Assembly: GCA_002413785.1 (NCBI GenBank)
Contig: DHXR01000052.1
Coordinates: 7,380-71,379, forward strand
Length of the DNA stretch: 64,000 bases
Reading direction: 5' to 3'
Origin: Mucilaginibacter sp. UBA5151
Lineage (GTDB): Bacteria > Bacteroidota > Bacteroidia > Sphingobacteriales > Sphingobacteriaceae
In this document: positions 1-4,990 of the stretch, one piece after another
Layout: each line of letters begins with the position of its first letter
How positions within the stretch are numbered: the first letter of the stretch is position 1
Program-made: the position numbers and the translations under genes
The notes under the pieces: model-generated
Databases searched by the model: none
Told to the model about the DNA's origin: nothing
The model's input: only the letters and a program-made list of their open reading frames with translations

Positions 1-984
1 TTCCCTGTAACCATAGTCGGTCAAGATAATAATGTCAGGTTTATAATCGAGTTTAATATCCAGGCCATTAAAAAAGCTGCTTGTAAAAAAGTTATATTTT
101 TTGAGTAGTAGTTCATCAAATTGACTTTCGGCTTTATAATTATAATCTTCAAAAGGTTTAAACAATTCAACACCCTCGTTTGAACAAAATATTCTGTGAT
201 CGTTTGTAAGCTTAAGTTGGTCGATTAGTTCCTTGATTCCATCAAGTGAATTAAAAAAGATACAATAATGGTCAGAATCATTTGTTTCGATATACTCTTT
301 TAACCCGTTGACGATACTATTTGAATGTACTAAATTTATTTTGGGCATATACATTTCCTTATTGGCATCAATTTCGAAATCAGGCGTTATTTTAATATTT
401 TTAAAATTCTTCTCTTTGAACCTGGGATCTGTTGGAGCAATTGGAGTAGCAGAAATCATCGCCTTATTTTCGAAATCAAAAAAATGCTCCATAACTTCCA
501 CCATATCGTCCCGATATTGAGCGTCTTTGATGAACTTATGGCACTCGTCAATTAAGAAAAAGATGTTTTTCTTGTAATCAAAGTACTTTGATTCTTCGGT
601 AACTGTATTTAATGCGGAAATTATTTTGTCGACACCCTTCGGTGTAGTTAATATTTTAAGGTATTCATAGTCTTTTTCTATATGGTTAATAATGTCTTTT
701 ATTTTAATTTCACCATACACAGCAAACGTGTGATCATCTGTTTTATGACCTTTATTTTTGCTTTTAACAATAGAAATATGAGGCAGGACTATTATGCTGT
801 GCCTCTTCGCTTTGATTTCACTGGTTGTGGCGCCGATACCGGTTACAGTTTTATATATTATTGAGTCTTTTGGAATGGGATTCACACCTTTGATTTCAGT
901 AAAATATTTTACTGTATTTGGAAATTCATGAACTTCATGAAAGACTATATTGAAGTTGTTTGTGTTTTTATCTATTGGTAACAT
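1..984 (-). CDS. SF2 (DExH) helicase-like protein, 3' end outside window
   Basis: Manual translation from ATG at 984 gives 328 open codons. Motifs: KTVTGIGATT (variant Walker A), LIDECH, ISAT, YCIFFNS, TSSFFNGLDI. Missing from the ORF track because no stop lies in the window. Confidence 0.85.
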   Translation of the reverse strand, partial: MLPIDKNTNNFNIVFHEVHEFPNTVKYFTEIKGVNPIPKDSIIYKTVTGIGATTSEIKAKRHSIIVLPHISIVKSKNKGHKTDDHTFAVYGEIKIKDIINHIEKDYEYLKILTTPKGVDKIISALNTVTEESKYFDYKKNIFFLIDECHKFIKDAQYRDDMVEVMEHFFDFENKAMISATPIAPTDPRFKEKNFKNIKITPDFEIDANKEMYMPKINLVHSNSIVNGLKEYIETNDSDHYCIFFNSLDGIKELIDQLKLTNDHRIFCSNEGVELFKPFEDYNYKAESQFDELLLKKYNFFTSSFFNGLDIKLDYKPDIIILTDYGYRE

Positions 985-1026
985 GGTAAATTGTGTTTGA
1001 TAGTAATTTGAGTGTTGATTATTATT

Positions 1027-1054
1027 AAAAGAGAGGTGCTTGGATAGACCTCTC
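1027..1054 (-). terminator. Intrinsic terminator after the 198-aa ORF
   Basis: GAGAGGT/ACCTCTC stem followed by TTTT on the minus strand. Confidence 0.5.
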
Positions 1055-1095
1055 TCGATGATTTGAACTTACAATTTGAATTAAGCTTGCTCGAA

Positions 1096-1692
1096 TTAGT
1101 AAAGCTCGTTGAAGCCTACACAATACCCTTCATCAAACCATTCTCCACCTTCATCATAACAAAAATCGCCATAGCCATTCGCTTCATCTTCCTCTGCTAA
1201 GGCAACGTCATAAGGTGCATTTTTTGCAAAGTCTTCGCAAGCTTCACTAATTGTTTTAAACTCGCCAAATAGGGCTAGGAATTTGACATCGTTGGCATTC
1301 TTAAATGACGGGGCTTCATTTATGATGTCGAAATCAAAAAATACACCCTGGGTTTCTTTGCCGTTGTTCAATCTAGGCCCAATGCCTAAATCATAAACGA
1401 AAATTGTTTTATTAATGAGGTGTTCCAGCGCTGCAACCTTATTTAATTTCGGATCAATGGGAAGATTCAGTAACGCTACCTCGAATTCTAAGCCGTCAAG
1501 GAAGAAACCTTCTTTACTTGCTTTCCAATTTACTATACCTATTGGAACCTGGTCAAATTTGTGAAATTCTCTATAAATTATAGTTCTTATAAAAAAATAA
1601 CCTGATCTTGGTGCAAGTCTTCCAGTACCTTCCAATTTTGCGTTATCAAATTTTTCGCTAACTCTTTCAGACATTTGGTTAAATAAATTCAT
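1096..1692 (-). CDS. Hypothetical protein with acidic/aromatic C-terminal tail
   Basis: 198-aa ORF; TATTTTTG promoter-like motif at 1728-1735 (minus); no recognised family. Confidence 0.7.
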   Translation of the reverse strand: MNLFNQMSERVSEKFDNAKLEGTGRLAPRSGYFFIRTIIYREFHKFDQVPIGIVNWKASKEGFFLDGLEFEVALLNLPIDPKLNKVAALEHLINKTIFVYDLGIGPRLNNGKETQGVFFDFDIINEAPSFKNANDVKFLALFGEFKTISEACEDFAKNAPYDVALAEEDEANGYGDFCYDEGGEWFDEGYCVGFNELY

Positions 1693-1824
1693 GATTAGTA
1701 TGCCATTTTGTTTTTTAGATGGCGATACAAAAATATAGCAATATGTTTATAACATATTGATTATCTGTTATTTACAAAGGTCAAGGAAGGGCTGAAAAGA
1801 TCATTAGGTTGACCTTTACTATTT

Positions 1825-3033
1825 TTAAATAAATTTCTTTTTACGATTTAAATTTTTAAAGGCATTATCAAATTTCGTACTTGAATACAATGGTTTATTA
1901 CTTAGTTCAATCTTAAATTTACTCAATCGTTCTTTTATTTGCTTTATCGAGCTGGAGTCGCTCCATTCACTTGTAGAATTTAAAGGCAATCCAATCATAA
2001 TCAGGTATTGGTAGATAAAATTATTCCTTTTGCGTTTTGTTATAATTGGGTCTTTAACTGATAACAGTTTTTCCGTCTCTAAATACATCATTATACCGGA
2101 ATAAAGCTGATTTAGGTTATAGATATTCTGACTTTCTGTATTATATTTATTTGTCGAGTGGTTTAGTTTATCGTATTCACCTGAAAAAAAATCGTGCTCA
2201 AGTAATGCTTTATAAAATTCGGTGTTATGTTCTTTTTGTTCCTTAAATAGGGTCTTAACGATAAAAGTATTAAATTTTATATTTTGTTCCTGATCTCTTT
2301 CGGTAAAAGTAACTGTCTTTCCTCCAATGTTATAGCTAAAATCGATTTTAATGTCTTTTGAAACTATCAGAAAATTTGGTTGCTCTTTCTCGTTTGACTT
2401 TTTAACTTCAGGCAATTTAATATTAATGTTAAAATATGCTACGATCCGCTTTATTACCTTGTTTTGCAAATCTTCATCAATCGTACTAAAGTCAATTTCG
2501 CCTTCGGTATTCTTAAATTCACTTTCCGGTTTTCCAGATAGCATTGATAGATAGCTTAAAAGTATATTATCTTTTTCATAGGAATCCAGATGATCATAAA
2601 TTGCATCTTTGATAGTTTCAATTGTATATTTAGGGAGTGGTGCTTTTATAAAGTTTAAAAGCAATTTGCCTCTTGTTCTCAACACATCATCCACATAAAC
2701 GTCGCTGTACTTATCTCTATTTGCTATAACATAAGTGTTAGCAAGTAAAAGTAATTCGTCAGCATGTTTTTCTAATTCAGATGATGATGATTCTAATACC
2801 GAATTAAATAACTCAATAAATTCACAAAGGAATGGTTCATCATATTGTTGAAAATAAGGGAATTTAAAAGGGACAGTAAACGAAGCAGGCCGATAAAAGG
2901 TAATACTATGCTCACCATAGGGATACATTACGAGGTCAACAAGTTTTTCTAAACTATATTTTGTGATGAAATCATAAGTCAATGATAATTCGATTTGTGA
3001 TTGGTTATCGTTATCTAGAACTATTTTAGGCAT
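1825..3033 (-). CDS. Hypothetical integrase-adjacent protein
   Basis: 402-aa AT-rich ORF co-oriented with the integrase; no recognised motif. Confidence 0.75.
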   Translation of the reverse strand: MPKIVLDNDNQSQIELSLTYDFITKYSLEKLVDLVMYPYGEHSITFYRPASFTVPFKFPYFQQYDEPFLCEFIELFNSVLESSSSELEKHADELLLLANTYVIANRDKYSDVYVDDVLRTRGKLLLNFIKAPLPKYTIETIKDAIYDHLDSYEKDNILLSYLSMLSGKPESEFKNTEGEIDFSTIDEDLQNKVIKRIVAYFNINIKLPEVKKSNEKEQPNFLIVSKDIKIDFSYNIGGKTVTFTERDQEQNIKFNTFIVKTLFKEQKEHNTEFYKALLEHDFFSGEYDKLNHSTNKYNTESQNIYNLNQLYSGIMMYLETEKLLSVKDPIITKRKRNNFIYQYLIMIGLPLNSTSEWSDSSSIKQIKERLSKFKIELSNKPLYSSTKFDNAFKNLNRKKKFI

Positions 3034-3112
3034 TTTCTTTGGGATTAAAATTTGAAATTATGAAAAAAGGCGGGTTTGAAATACAGCATACTTCTTATAA
3101 GGTCACTAAGAT

Positions 3113-3142
3113 AAAAAAAGCAGGATAGTTACCTACCTTGCT
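3113..3142 (-). terminator. Intrinsic terminator after the integrase
   Basis: AGCAAGGTAG-GTAA-CTATCCTGCT then T-tract on the minus strand. Confidence 0.6.
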
Positions 3143-3161
3143 CCTTATGTAATATATATAT

Positions 3162-4493
3162 TTATTTATATTTCGAATAGATTGATAAGCTCGTCTTTTG
3201 CAATTTATACTTATTTAGATCGATAGACGGCCTTAAAGTAAAACTGCAGGGATTTCTTACCAACTTAAGGCAAGGAATTACATTTATAATAACCTTATCA
3301 TTCATTTGGTCTATAAGACTTTGGTCGAAATCATCAAGGTAAATATTGGTTATCTTATTACCATACTCATGTCCTAAAGATTCAGCAATCATCTCGTTTG
3401 AATATCCAAGTTTCTTAGCTGTAGTTGCCCAGGTATGTCGTATCACATAAGTGGTTAGATTGATTTTCAGTTTACATTGCGAGGTAATTTGATTCAGATA
3501 ATTGTTGGTTACTTTAATCCATTGTCTTGTAATTCTTATAGCAGCCTCACTATCTTCAATCGTACCTTTAGTAAAGACTGGCAATAAATAATCTGTTGGG
3601 TTGTCTTTGTAATAATTAAATATTTGAATAGCCACAGGATGAAGTTTAATGGTATAAAGCTTCTTTGTCTTCCGCCTTCGATAAGTTATGTATCCTTTGT
3701 GAATATTTTCACTTTTCAGATAAGCCATATCTGTAAATGACATGCCTCTTAATGCGAAACTCAGGAATAAGAAATTAGCTGCATGCCATTGTTGTGAATT
3801 GGTTTTTTTTGGACAATTGTAAATTTTAGATAACTCATCGCTACCAATTGCCCGTTTGGCAGTCTTTTCAGTTTTTATTGAAATGTCATAAAATGGATAT
3901 AAATCTCGTGCTACGATCTTAGCCTTGATAGCTTTATTAAATAAAGCCCGAATAGATCTGAAATAATTTCCAATAGTGTTTTTGCTCATCCCCTCTTGTG
4001 ATAATTTATTTTGAAAGTTATCTAATAAAGTGTAATTTATATCCTTAAATTCAAGTTTAAGGTTGTCAGTATACAGCATTAATCGGTTAATAGCGGTTCT
4101 ATAAACAAGTGCATTCCCTGTTCGTTTAACCAATATAAATTCATCTACCACTTTGTTAGCAAAGTTTAGAAATGTAGTATTTATAACAGGTTGTATTTGT
4201 TTAGGCATAAGTTTAGACTTTAGCTTTTCAAAACAAAATGGTTCAGATTCCTCTATTTGAAGAATTGCCTTTTGAATTTCATAGTAACGCTTACTTAATG
4301 CAACATTGATAGTACTGTAGTTAGGATGTGTACTTCTTAAATTAAGCTTATTTTGATCCCAATCATTTTCCTTAATTGATATTCCCGAATGAATTAAATG
4401 AACCTTTTTAATGTTAGTTACTCTAAAAGTAACCGGATAAGTACCATCAGATTTTTTTCTTCTGACGTCTAAAACAATTTTTAAATGAACCAT
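3162..4493 (-). CDS. Tyrosine recombinase/integrase (arm-binding, SAM-like and catalytic domains)
   Basis: N-terminal LDVRRKKSDGTYPVTFRVT arm-binding-like segment; catalytic LRGMSFTD, YVIRHTWAT, LGHE, TNIYL. ATG 4493 preferred over the track start at 4529. Confidence 0.95.
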   Translation of the reverse strand: MVHLKIVLDVRRKKSDGTYPVTFRVTNIKKVHLIHSGISIKENDWDQNKLNLRSTHPNYSTINVALSKRYYEIQKAILQIEESEPFCFEKLKSKLMPKQIQPVINTTFLNFANKVVDEFILVKRTGNALVYRTAINRLMLYTDNLKLEFKDINYTLLDNFQNKLSQEGMSKNTIGNYFRSIRALFNKAIKAKIVARDLYPFYDISIKTEKTAKRAIGSDELSKIYNCPKKTNSQQWHAANFLFLSFALRGMSFTDMAYLKSENIHKGYITYRRRKTKKLYTIKLHPVAIQIFNYYKDNPTDYLLPVFTKGTIEDSEAAIRITRQWIKVTNNYLNQITSQCKLKINLTTYVIRHTWATTAKKLGYSNEMIAESLGHEYGNKITNIYLDDFDQSLIDQMNDKVIINVIPCLKLVRNPCSFTLRPSIDLNKYKLQKTSLSIYSKYK

Positions 4494-4538
4494 AAATTTG
4501 AGTTTATGGCTATGGTTTGTGTAAGTCACACCTTAAAA

Positions 4539-4593
4539 TTTGCAAACTATTTGCAAACTATTTGCAAACTATTTGCAAACTATTTGCAAACTA
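4539..4593. repeat. Five perfect tandem copies of TTTGCAAACTA
   Basis: Units start at 4539, 4550, 4561, 4572 and 4583; each contains the palindrome TTTGCAAA. Confidence 0.97.
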
Positions 4594-4606
4594 AGTCAAG
4601 AAAAAC

Positions 4607-4798
4607 GTGCCAGGCATGAAAGATTTCAGGGGCACCATCCTCTTTACCACGCGTGACCATGAGTTGGTTGAAACTGTAGCCAACAGGATTATAGAAATAA
4701 CCCCTGGCGGCACTATAGATAAGCTGATGACCTACGATGAGTATATCAACAGCGATGCGGTGCAGAAACAGCGGGATGAGTTGTACGCGATGGCTTAG
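4607..4798 (+). pseudogene. Orphan 3' fragment of an ABC-F family ATPase gene
   Basis: GMKDFRGTILFTTRDHELVETVANRIIEITPGGTIDKLMTYDEY matches the C-terminus of the second ABC domain of YbiT-like ABC-F proteins; no upstream gene body. Confidence 0.8.
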
Positions 4799-4914
4799 GT
4801 GAAGGGCGAAAGGTAAAAGGTGAAAGGTTTTCATCTCCAATTATGCTTCTTTCGGACTTTTCCGACTTTCGGACTTCAAAAAAAATCCGTTTATTTGCAG
4901 CCCGTCTTTACAAT

Positions 4915-4987
4915 GACTTGGTAGCTCAGCCGGTAGAGCAACTGACTCTTAATCAGTGGGTCGAGAGTTCGATCCTCTCCCAGGTCA
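4915..4987 (+). tRNA. tRNA-Lys(CTT)
   Basis: Acceptor stem GACTTGG/CCAGGTC, D arm TAGCTCAGCCGGTAGAGC, anticodon loop CT-CTT-AA, T loop GTTCGAT; CCA not encoded. Confidence 0.97.
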
Positions 4988-4990
4988 CTG

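What the first reader, a model, noticed from the sequence alone, without database searches (positions are those of the whole stretch)
4539..4593. Five helically phased perfect 11-bp repeats at the element end
Seen: (TTTGCAAACTA)x5 lies 45 bp upstream of the integrase ATG and about 20 bp from the host junction; each unit holds the palindrome TTTGCAAA. Known: tyrosine integrases and their accessory factors bind direct repeats flanking the att core, and an 11-bp period puts sites on nearly one DNA face. Inference: an arm-type or directionality-factor array whose copy number could vary by slippage and tune excision or integrase expression.
Basis: partly seen in the sequence, partly recalled or inferred. 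Interest (0 to 1): 0.65.

Follow-up and report, generated by a model that had tools for sequence, protein, structure and literature searches.

The report
Expanded integrase arm-site repeat array
Five perfect 11-base repeats just upstream of a mobile element's integrase gene are an expanded version of a paired repeat that related elements carry at both of their ends, most likely the docking sites for the integrase's extra DNA-binding domain; this is a normal kind of feature, unusual here only in its copy number.

Summary
(TTTGCAAACTA)x5 is perfect at window 4539-4593, 45 bp upstream of the ATG (4493) of a minus-strand tyrosine integrase with an N-terminal Arm-DNA-bind_5 domain.

- The motif is at the other element end. 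Two near-perfect units lie on contig C29, about 60 bp from the junction and in the same orientation.
- Nearly all of 63 integrase relatives (Sphingobacteriaceae, Flavobacteriaceae) carry 2-3 tandem 11-bp units at the same place upstream of int.
- Ten relatives show a second matching pair on the same strand 7-27 kb away, at the far att site.
- The motif differs between elements but matches between the two ends of one element.
- The integrase is the only protein the window element shares with four distant small elements.

The best reading is therefore integrase arm-type sites.

The closest relatives (72% and 66% identical Int) have 2 units in the same context. The window's 5 look like a recent three-unit slippage expansion, the largest array seen.

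One correction: the element did not insert into the ABC-F gene. The crossover is in the tRNA-Lys anticodon loop (4946-4952). Window 4613-4952 is a 340-bp duplicated block.

No binding, read-level or expression data could be obtained.

The parts
4539..4593 (-). Five perfect tandem 11-bp units. They read TAGTTTGCAAA in the direction of the integrase gene. This is the int-proximal putative arm-type site array.
   Evidence: Relatives carry 2-3 units at the homologous position.
3162..4493 (-). Tyrosine integrase, 443 aa, with three domains: Arm-DNA-bind_5 (residues 10-84), Phage_int_SAM_5 and the Phage_integrase catalytic domain.
   Evidence: Pfam. Alignment invariants include R214, R352, H375 and Y385. 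The AF2 model has an N-terminal three-stranded sheet plus helix. Foldseek aligns it to full-length lambda Int.
4504..4509 (-). Conserved CCATAA box (read on the int strand), 16 nt upstream of the int ATG. Its function is unknown.
   Evidence: It is present at -16 to -18 in 58 of 63 relatives.
4594..4612 (.). The last 19 bp of element-specific, AT-rich DNA between the array and the duplicated block. The gccagg motif is shared with the G185 relative.
4613..4952 (+). 340-bp block: ABC-F 3' fragment (to 4798), intergenic region with the tRNA promoter region, and the 5' half of tRNA-Lys. It is duplicated at 98.5% identity (5 mismatches) at C29:64277-64616. It acts as the long direct repeat flanking the element.
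   Evidence: The ABC-F gene is intact on C29.
4946..4952 (+). Anticodon loop (ctcttaa) of tRNA-Lys(CTT), the inferred crossover region. Identity with the C29 copy ends exactly at 4952.
   Evidence: The same junction is seen in G185 (45-bp repeat). In tRNA-Arg and tRNA-Val relatives the repeats begin at the anticodon loop.
4915..4988 (+). Intact tRNA-Lys(CTT). Its 5' half and upstream region are supplied by the element-side block and its 3' half by the host.
   Evidence: ARAGORN.
1..3161 (-). Interior of the low-GC (about 30%) element. It continues leftward to the start of contig C85 (7,379 bp beyond the window) and resumes on C29:64617-65683, where the distal repeat pair and a RadC-like gene lie.

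Best explanation
The array is the int-proximal set of arm-type binding sites for the element's own heterobivalent tyrosine integrase.

Proposed mechanism:
- The integrase's N-terminal Arm-DNA-bind_5 domain would bind the 11-bp units. Its core-binding and catalytic domains act about 355 bp away, at the anticodon loop of tRNA-Lys(CTT).
- A second pair of units sits about 60 bp from the crossover on the other arm. In the excised circle the crossover is therefore flanked by direct repeats that let integrase protomers bridge arm and core and assemble the intasome.
- The family's standard layout is 2 (sometimes 3) units per arm, which would give four arm sites for four protomers.
- In this element the proximal array grew from 2 to 5 perfect units, most likely by replication slippage and recently.
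- The array lies 25-60 bp (45-100 bp in this element) upstream of the int ATG in all relatives. Bound integrase probably also represses its own gene, as shown for KplE1 IntS.

Shown here: the repeat, its conservation, its presence on both arms, the covariation between ends, the domain architecture and the junctions.
Inferred: binding by Int, a role in recombination, autoregulation, and any effect of the three extra copies.
For: 1. The integrase has the arm-binding domain. Pfam PF17293 scores E 2.1e-9, 38.2 bits against a cut-off of 22.6. The AF2 N-terminal domain has pLDDT about 90, with three strands plus a helix. Foldseek aligns about 406-411 columns to full-length lambda Int 1z1b/1z1g.

2. 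The motif is on both arms in direct orientation. In the window element these are 4539-4593 and C29:64676-64697. The distal 46 bp including the pair is 91% identical to the far end of the complete 25-kb G185 element.

3. The feature is family-wide. Period-11 arrays occur at about -25 to -60 from the ATG: 44 relatives scored 2 copies (a few of these calls are off-target repeats), 9 scored 3, and only the window has 5. The enrichment is 36/63 against 15/11,981 control windows.

4. Ten relatives have a second pair on the same strand and contig, 7-27 kb beyond int. It abuts the far tRNA copy, 58-62 bp from the anticodon-loop junction in four relatives where this was measured.

5. The motif variant differs between elements (TTTGCAAA, TTTGCACA, TTTGTACA, TTAGTACA and others) but matches between the two ends of one element. 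The variants cluster on the integrase tree.

6. The integrase is the only protein of 60 aa or more shared between this element and four 7-12-kb Flavobacteriaceae elements that keep the same repeat layout.

7. The closest relatives (Int 72% and 66% identical) have the same flanks but 2 units. The alignment shows an exact 33-bp (3-unit) excess in the window.

8. Precedents: IntDOT has five arm-type sites around its core (PMC2817482). KplE1 IntS arm sites overlap the int promoter next to a tRNA and give negative autoregulation (PMC2951348).
Against: - There is no binding, footprint or recombination data for any member of this clade.
- The proximal array is about 355 bp from the crossover, against 86-130 bp in most relatives (170-230 bp in the two closest). 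That is long for arm-core bridging without strong bends.
- The array's position is fixed relative to the int ATG rather than to the crossover. This would also fit a purely regulatory operator.
- Three of the 15 relatives tested showed no second pair.
- Clustering of motif variants on the integrase tree is also expected from plain descent.
- A small shared protein under 60 aa, or too diverged for BLASTP, would have been missed.
- The three extra units may be neutral.
Confidence: 0.7

Rival explanations
1. The units are binding sites for a recombination directionality factor (Xis-like) or another element-encoded or host DNA-bending protein that polymerises on phased repeats. They are not integrase arm sites.
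For: Tandem, helically phased direct repeats are typical of Xis/RDF filaments (general knowledge; wHTH RDF oligomers, PMC11963761, listed). The element encodes at least one small HTH_3 protein. Part of the element is unassembled, so an RDF gene could be missing from view.
Against: - The motif lies on both arms. RDF sites are typically on one arm.
- No HTH_17/excisionase domain was found in the assembled 13 kb.
- No protein other than Int is shared with distant elements that keep the same repeat layout.
- The standard 2+2 layout fits a tetramer of Int.
Confidence: 0.12
2. The array is only a transcriptional element of the int gene, either a promoter or an operator for a repressor, and has no role in recombination.
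For: - The array keeps a fixed distance from the int ATG (median 27 nt from array end to ATG), while its distance from the crossover varies from 86 to 355 bp.
- In relatives where a tRNA terminator hairpin directly precedes the repeats, the int promoter must overlap them.
- TAGTTTG resembles the Bacteroidota -7 box TAnnTTTG (own knowledge).
Against: - A second pair sits at a conserved 58-62 bp from the crossover at the far end, where it controls no integrase gene.
- About 15 relatives use the TAGTACA-type units, which lack TTTG, and the TA is not conserved. The unit is therefore not a -7 box.
- The unit spacing of TA-N1-TTTG does not fit TAnnTTTG.
Confidence: 0.08
3. The five-copy state is a neutral microsatellite expansion or an assembly miscount of a functional two-unit site. 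Under this reading the extra three copies do nothing.
For: - Perfect identity of all five units indicates a very recent event.
- The nearest relatives work with 2 units.
- Only one genome shows 5.
- Reads could not be inspected.
Against: - At 55 bp the array is shorter than ordinary reads and the usual largest k-mers, so a miscount is unlikely.
- Arrays of 4 or more units occur only in elements with a long int-side arm: 3 of 7 against 0 of 40, in three separate clades. This hints at compensation rather than neutrality, though the sample is small and the elements are related.
Confidence: 0.35

Closest known systems
Bacteriophage lambda attP arm-type sites (P1, P2, P'1-P'3) bound by the Int N-terminal domain
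   Same: Short direct repeats lie on both arms, with adjacent sites about one helical turn apart. They would be bound by an extra N-terminal domain of a three-domain tyrosine integrase. The model of this Int aligns to full-length lambda Int.
   Different: There is no sequence similarity of protein or site. Here the standard layout is 2+2 identical tandem units and the crossover is in a tRNA anticodon loop. This element has 5 units on one arm, about 355 bp from the crossover. No binding data exist.
KplE1/HK620 IntS attL: arm-type P' sites overlapping the intS promoter next to tRNA argW (PMC2951348)
   Same: The int gene lies next to a tRNA att site, and arm-type repeats sit between the att core and the int start codon. 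That layout gives negative autoregulation by Int and is reported to be widespread.
   Different: The phylum, integrase family and promoter type are all different. Autoregulation is not tested here. In this element int points away from the 5' side of the tRNA.
CTnDOT attDOT / IntDOT and NBU1 IntN1 (IntCTnDOT subgroup of Bacteroidota integrases)
   Same: The Pfam architecture typical of Bacteroidota integrases is shared (Arm-DNA-bind_5, Phage_int_SAM_5, Phage_integrase). [quoted passage not shown]
   Different: This Int was not compared directly with IntDOT or IntN1. The original arm-site papers (DiChiara 2007; Wood 2013) were not held, so site sequences could not be compared. CTnDOT does not target the tRNA anticodon loop. 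The elements here are from soil and aquatic Sphingobacteriaceae and Flavobacteriaceae.
Riemerella anatipestifer 10K genomic island integrase at tRNA-Arg (PMC6764341)
   Same: It is a small Flavobacteriales island next to tRNA-Arg with an IntN1-like tyrosine integrase. A 1,716-bp fragment holding int, its promoter region and one att repeat was enough for integration and excision. That would fit Int as the only element protein needed.
   Different: Membership of that integrase in this clade was not verified. The paper does not mention arm repeats. Its 53-bp repeat starts at the tRNA 3' end rather than at the anticodon loop.

Membership tests
Heterobivalent tyrosine integrase system with arm-type sites (lambda Int / IntDOT paradigm) | The integrase carries an N-terminal arm-binding domain in addition to the core-binding and catalytic domains. 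| tested here: met
   PF17293 at residues 10-84 (38.2 bits, cut-off 22.6), PF13102 and PF00589. AF2 shows a three-stranded sheet plus helix at pLDDT about 90. Foldseek aligns about 406-411 columns to full-length lambda Int.
Heterobivalent tyrosine integrase system with arm-type sites (lambda Int / IntDOT paradigm) | Catalytic tyrosine-recombinase residues are conserved. | tested here: met
   R214, R352, H375 and Y385 are invariant in the 23-sequence alignment. PF00589 is just over its cut-off (27.9 against 27.1 bits).
Heterobivalent tyrosine integrase system with arm-type sites (lambda Int / IntDOT paradigm) | A repeated short motif, distinct from the core, lies on both arms flanking the crossover site. 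| tested here: met
   Window 4539-4593 and C29:64676-64697. Ten relatives have proximal and distal pairs on one strand.
Heterobivalent tyrosine integrase system with arm-type sites (lambda Int / IntDOT paradigm) | The sites co-vary with the integrase and are conserved across the family. | tested here: met
   Motif variants match between the two ends of an element and differ between elements. They cluster on the Int tree, with 24 changes against 35.1 when shuffled. This is consistent with descent as well as with co-evolution.
Heterobivalent tyrosine integrase system with arm-type sites (lambda Int / IntDOT paradigm) | The N-terminal domain binds the units directly, and the units are required for recombination. 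| not testable with these tools
   This needs EMSA or footprinting and mini-element recombination assays.
Recombination directionality factor (Xis-type) binding array | Sites are confined to one arm, and a cognate small RDF gene is present in the element. | tested here: not met
   The motif is on both arms. No excisionase-type domain was found in the assembled part, only an HTH_3 protein. The element is not fully assembled, so absence of an RDF gene is not shown.
Bacteroidota primary-sigma promoter (-7 box TAnnTTTG) | The units match TAnnTTTG, and the TTTG is conserved in relatives. | tested here: not met
   The unit reads TA-N1-TTTG. The TA is not conserved, and the TAGTACA-class relatives lack TTTG altogether. 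The consensus is taken from own knowledge.
tRNA-gene integrating element with anticodon-loop crossover | The direct repeat flanking the element begins or ends at the anticodon loop of the target tRNA, and the tRNA is restored. | tested here: met
   Identity ends at tRNA position 38 (window 4952 / C29:64616), and an intact tRNA-Lys lies at 4915-4988. G185 has a 45-bp repeat from the loop to the tRNA 5' end. In relatives the repeats begin at the anticodon loop.

The most novel reading that the evidence does not exclude
Arm-site copy number may be an evolvable, slippage-prone dial. When the int-side arm is lengthened, elements would gain extra tandem arm sites. In this element the lengthening came from about 300 bp of captured host DNA. 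Three independent expansions to 4-5 units are all in long-arm elements. The extra sites would either restore arm-core bridging or reset integrase autorepression. Perfect arrays like this one might then vary within populations and set excision frequency, as a contingency locus for element mobility.
Probability: 0.15. Interest if true: 0.55.

Novelty: new member of a known kind. Interest (0 to 1): 0.35.

Why it matters
The work gives a concrete, testable attP map for a large, uncharacterised clade of tRNA-targeting integrases in Sphingobacteriaceae and Flavobacteriaceae:
- the crossover is in the anticodon loop;
- a pair of 11-bp units lies on each arm;
- a conserved CCATAA box precedes int.

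Such a map helps to delimit genomic islands in these genomes. It could also support integration vectors for Bacteroidota that are hard to manipulate genetically.

The five-unit array, together with the 340-bp captured host block, offers a natural experiment on how arm-site number and arm length affect intasome assembly or integrase autoregulation. The underlying principle, arm-type sites of heterobivalent integrases, is textbook.

Tried and rejected
- **Metagenome scan.** A scan for the array with its flank returned only the contig already found. A DNA search of 200 genomes of the genus found only two related elements, both with 2 units.
- **Which 340-bp copy is native.** I tried to decide this from genus relatives. 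They are only 72-85% identical here, so they are uninformative. The five differing sites showed no consistent pattern by eye.
- **Insertion into ABC-F.** I rejected it because ABC-F is intact on C29 and the duplicated block ends at the anticodon loop.
- **Defence-system annotation.** PADLOC gave no hits for the element genes.
- **PDB sequence search.** The Int gave no hits. The fold search did work.
- **A 36-codon ORF on the plus strand reading through the repeats (4509-4619).** I dismissed it. The 11-bp period is out of frame, and relatives conserve the DNA motif rather than a peptide.
- **Promoter (-7 box) reading.** Rejected; see the membership test.
- **Hairpin or cruciform.** The array folds only weakly as single-stranded DNA (-12.9 kcal/mol, z -2.5, centroid unstructured). 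That is explained by the unit palindrome, and I did not pursue it.
- **Literature.** DiChiara 2007 and Wood 2013 (IntDOT and IntN1 arm sites) are not held.
- **Other copies in this genome.** A third tandem-pair hit at C28:199374 is probably chance, because the genome holds only one integrase of this family.

Full report
**Observation.** The window reads (TTTGCAAACTA)x5 without a single mismatch at 4539-4593. Tandem Repeats Finder gives period 11, 5.1 copies, 100% matches and score 112. Each unit contains the palindrome TTTGCAAA. On the minus strand, a 443-aa ORF starts at the ATG at 4493, 45 bp from the array. Pfam finds Arm-DNA-bind_5 (residues 10-84), Phage_int_SAM_5 and Phage_integrase in it. 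Everything to the left of 4613 has about 30% GC, against 41% for the genome. The exact unit occurs 16 times in the 4.74-Mb genome, five of them here.

**Where the element ends.** The window is C85:7380-71379 of an 87-contig assembly. Low-GC element DNA runs to the start of C85.

The 63-codon ABC-F fragment after the array is not a disrupted gene. Window 4613-4952 is repeated at 98.5% identity (5 mismatches in 340 bp) at C29:64277-64616. On C29 the ABC-F gene is intact: 542 aa, two ABC domains and the ABC-F linker.

The repeat covers three parts:
- the ABC-F 3' end;
- the intergenic region;
- the first 38 nt of tRNA-Lys(CTT).

It ends exactly at the 3' edge of the anticodon loop (ctcttaa, window 4946-4952). 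Beyond that point C29 continues with AT-rich DNA to the contig end, including a RadC-like gene. C29 therefore carries the left junction and the window carries the right junction. The crossover is in the anticodon loop, and the element supplies the 5' half of the restored tRNA.

ABC-F followed by tRNA-Lys is the native gene order in the genus.

**The motif at the other end.** At C29:64676-64697, 59-60 bp inside the left junction, lie two units with one mismatch each. They have the same orientation as the array.

**Relatives.**
- *Who they are.* The integrase has thousands of homologues, the nearest 72% identical, mostly in Mucilaginibacter, Pedobacter, Daejeonella and Flavobacteriaceae. I examined 63 of the 79 genomic loci fetched.
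- *Repeats upstream of int.* Nearly every locus shows 2 or 3 tandem 11-bp direct repeats ending about 22-45 nt before the int ATG, followed by a conserved CCATAA box at -16 to -18. A pair with at most one mismatch is present in 36 of 63 upstream windows, against 15 of 11,981 random windows of the same loci.
- *Motif variants.* The motif differs between elements: TAGTTTGCAAA, TGTTTGCACAC, TAGTTTGCACA, GTTAGTACA, GATAGTACA and others. The copies within one element stay alike.
- *tRNA neighbours.* About 50 loci sit 100-150 bp downstream of a tRNA gene (Val, Asn, Arg, Met, Lys) on the same strand. Nine have the tRNA on the opposite strand, as here.

**Second pairs in relatives.** I ran pattern searches in the genomes of 15 relatives.
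- Ten have a second pair on the same contig and strand, 7-27 kb beyond int.
- Five have a candidate pair on another contig.
- Three have none.

Where I fetched the DNA, the second pair abuts the far tRNA copy:
- In four Flavobacteriaceae elements of 7-12 kb it lies 29 bp upstream of a full second tRNA copy.
- In three Mucilaginibacter elements it lies 62 bp from a direct repeat that begins at the anticodon loop.

The complete 25-kb element in G185 has a 66% identical Int, belongs to the same genus and uses the same tRNA-Lys in the same orientation. Its distal pair is 58 bp from a 45-bp direct repeat that runs from the anticodon loop to 7 bp upstream of the tRNA. Its far end is 91% identical over 46 bp to the window element's left end.

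Two further relatives (L052, L058) use the same tRNA-Lys but carry the tRNA 5'-half block on the distal arm.

The short arm therefore keeps the pair about 60 bp from the crossover. The other arm varies: 86-130 bp in most, 170-230 bp in the two closest relatives, and about 355 bp here.

**Who binds.** The window element and the four small Flavobacteriaceae elements share only the integrase (46-49% identity) among ORFs of 60 aa or more, yet all keep the repeat layout.

The AF2 model has an N-terminal three-stranded sheet plus helix at pLDDT about 90 (mean pLDDT 80). Foldseek aligns the whole model, N-domain included, to full-length lambda Int, with E about 1e-7 over 406-411 columns.

Motif variants cluster on the integrase tree. 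The window sits in a well-supported five-member clade, all with the TTTGCAAA-type unit. That fits co-evolution, but plain descent would give the same pattern.

Taken together, the most economical reading is that the units are arm-type sites for the integrase N-domain. This is inferred and not shown.

**The expansion.** The two closest relatives have the same flanking sequence but two good units. These are L095 (72% identical Int) and G185/L002 (66%). The alignment places an exact 33-bp, three-unit excess in the window. Five units is the maximum among the 63 relatives examined plus the window. Perfect identity points to a recent slippage event.

Arrays of four or more units occur only where the tRNA is on the opposite strand and the int-side arm is long:
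- 3 of 7 such loci (4, 4 and 5 units), in three separate clades;
- 0 of 40 loci in the common orientation.

This trend is suggestive only. The sample is small and the elements are related.

**The 340-bp block.** In G185 the flanking repeat is 45 bp. The 133 bp between the tRNA and the array is element-specific and carries its own TATATTTG box about 21 nt before the tRNA (the promoter consensus is own knowledge). In the window all but the last 19 bp of that stretch is replaced by host-like DNA reaching 188 bp into ABC-F. L095 carries a shorter ABC-F fragment. I take this as capture of, or conversion by, host DNA next to the att site. The mechanism is unexplained.

**Rivals.**
- *Xis/RDF array.* This fits less well because the motif is on both arms. 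No excisionase-type gene was found in the assembled part, which has only an HTH_3 protein.
- *Promoter or operator only.* This cannot explain the distal pair at a conserved distance from the crossover. The unit is also not a Bacteroidota -7 box, because TAGTACA-class relatives lack TTTG.
- *Dual role.* The array is anchored to the int start codon. In many relatives it is directly preceded by a terminator hairpin. A role as both arm site and autorepression operator is therefore plausible. The same layout in KplE1 gives negative autoregulation and is reported to be widespread (PMC2951348).
- *Neutral extra units.* Neutrality of the three extra units cannot be excluded.

**Comparison with known systems and limits.** This is the classical arm-type site principle of lambda Int. 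It is also documented for the Bacteroides integrase IntDOT, which has five arm-type sites (PMC2817482; PMC8138268). I found no description of this clade's sites. The primary IntDOT and IntN1 arm-site papers were not available. A Riemerella island paper shows that int plus one att region suffices for integration and excision, but I did not verify that its integrase belongs to this clade (PMC6764341). Read data were unavailable.

**Verdict.** It is an ordinary kind of feature with an unusual copy number and arm length.

Noticed in passing
window 4613-4952 and G000:C29:64277-64616: A 340-bp direct repeat (98.5% identical) flanks the element. It covers the ABC-F 3' end, the intergenic region and the tRNA-Lys 5' half. 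In the related G185 element the same repeat is only 45 bp. The element seems to have captured, or been converted by, about 300 bp of host DNA. The mechanism is unexplained.
   Followed up: partly
window 4504-4509 (minus strand) and L002-L080 at -16..-18 from the int ATG: A CCATAA box at a fixed distance upstream of the integrase start codon is present in 58 of 63 relatives. Its function is unknown. It could be a transcription or translation signal, or another protein site.
   Followed up: partly
L095:219-3332: One tRNA-Lys(CTT) gene is flanked on both sides by divergently oriented integrases of this family (65% and 72% identical to the window's). Each has its own 11-bp repeat pair with a different motif (TAGTTTGTACA and GTTTGCAAA). 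Two elements therefore appear to share one tRNA, one supplying its 3' half and the other its 5' half.
   Followed up: partly
L109:440-475 (G185:C35): The element-borne DNA upstream of the restored tRNA-Lys carries a perfect TATATTTG box at the same distance from the tRNA as the box upstream of the L052 tRNA-Lys copy (the native host copies read TTTATTTG, one mismatch). The element therefore brings its own promoter for the tRNA 5' half it supplies.
   Followed up: no
L091:12981-13057: Beyond the far end of an Aestuariibaculum element lies a third, partial tRNA-Asn copy that starts at the anticodon loop. It looks like the scar of an earlier or tandem integration at the same site.
   Followed up: no
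G000:C39:4500-10800: A second gene cluster in the window's own genome encodes paralogues (29-57% identity) of several proteins of the G185 element and of the window element. No integrase of this family is nearby.
   Followed up: no
L096:13068-20603: The closest related element (72% identical Int) carries large RHS-repeat and DUF6443 proteins more than 10 kb from int. This suggests a polymorphic-toxin cargo. Its far end lies more than 20 kb from int.
   Followed up: no
L001:1742-1984 (C85, left of the window): A small Cro/C1-type HTH_3 protein is encoded on the strand opposite to most element genes. It is a candidate element regulator.
   Followed up: no
A search with the last 26 nt of the tRNA, allowing up to 3 mismatches, found only the tRNA itself. 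Any copy must be more diverged or shorter.
   Followed up: partly
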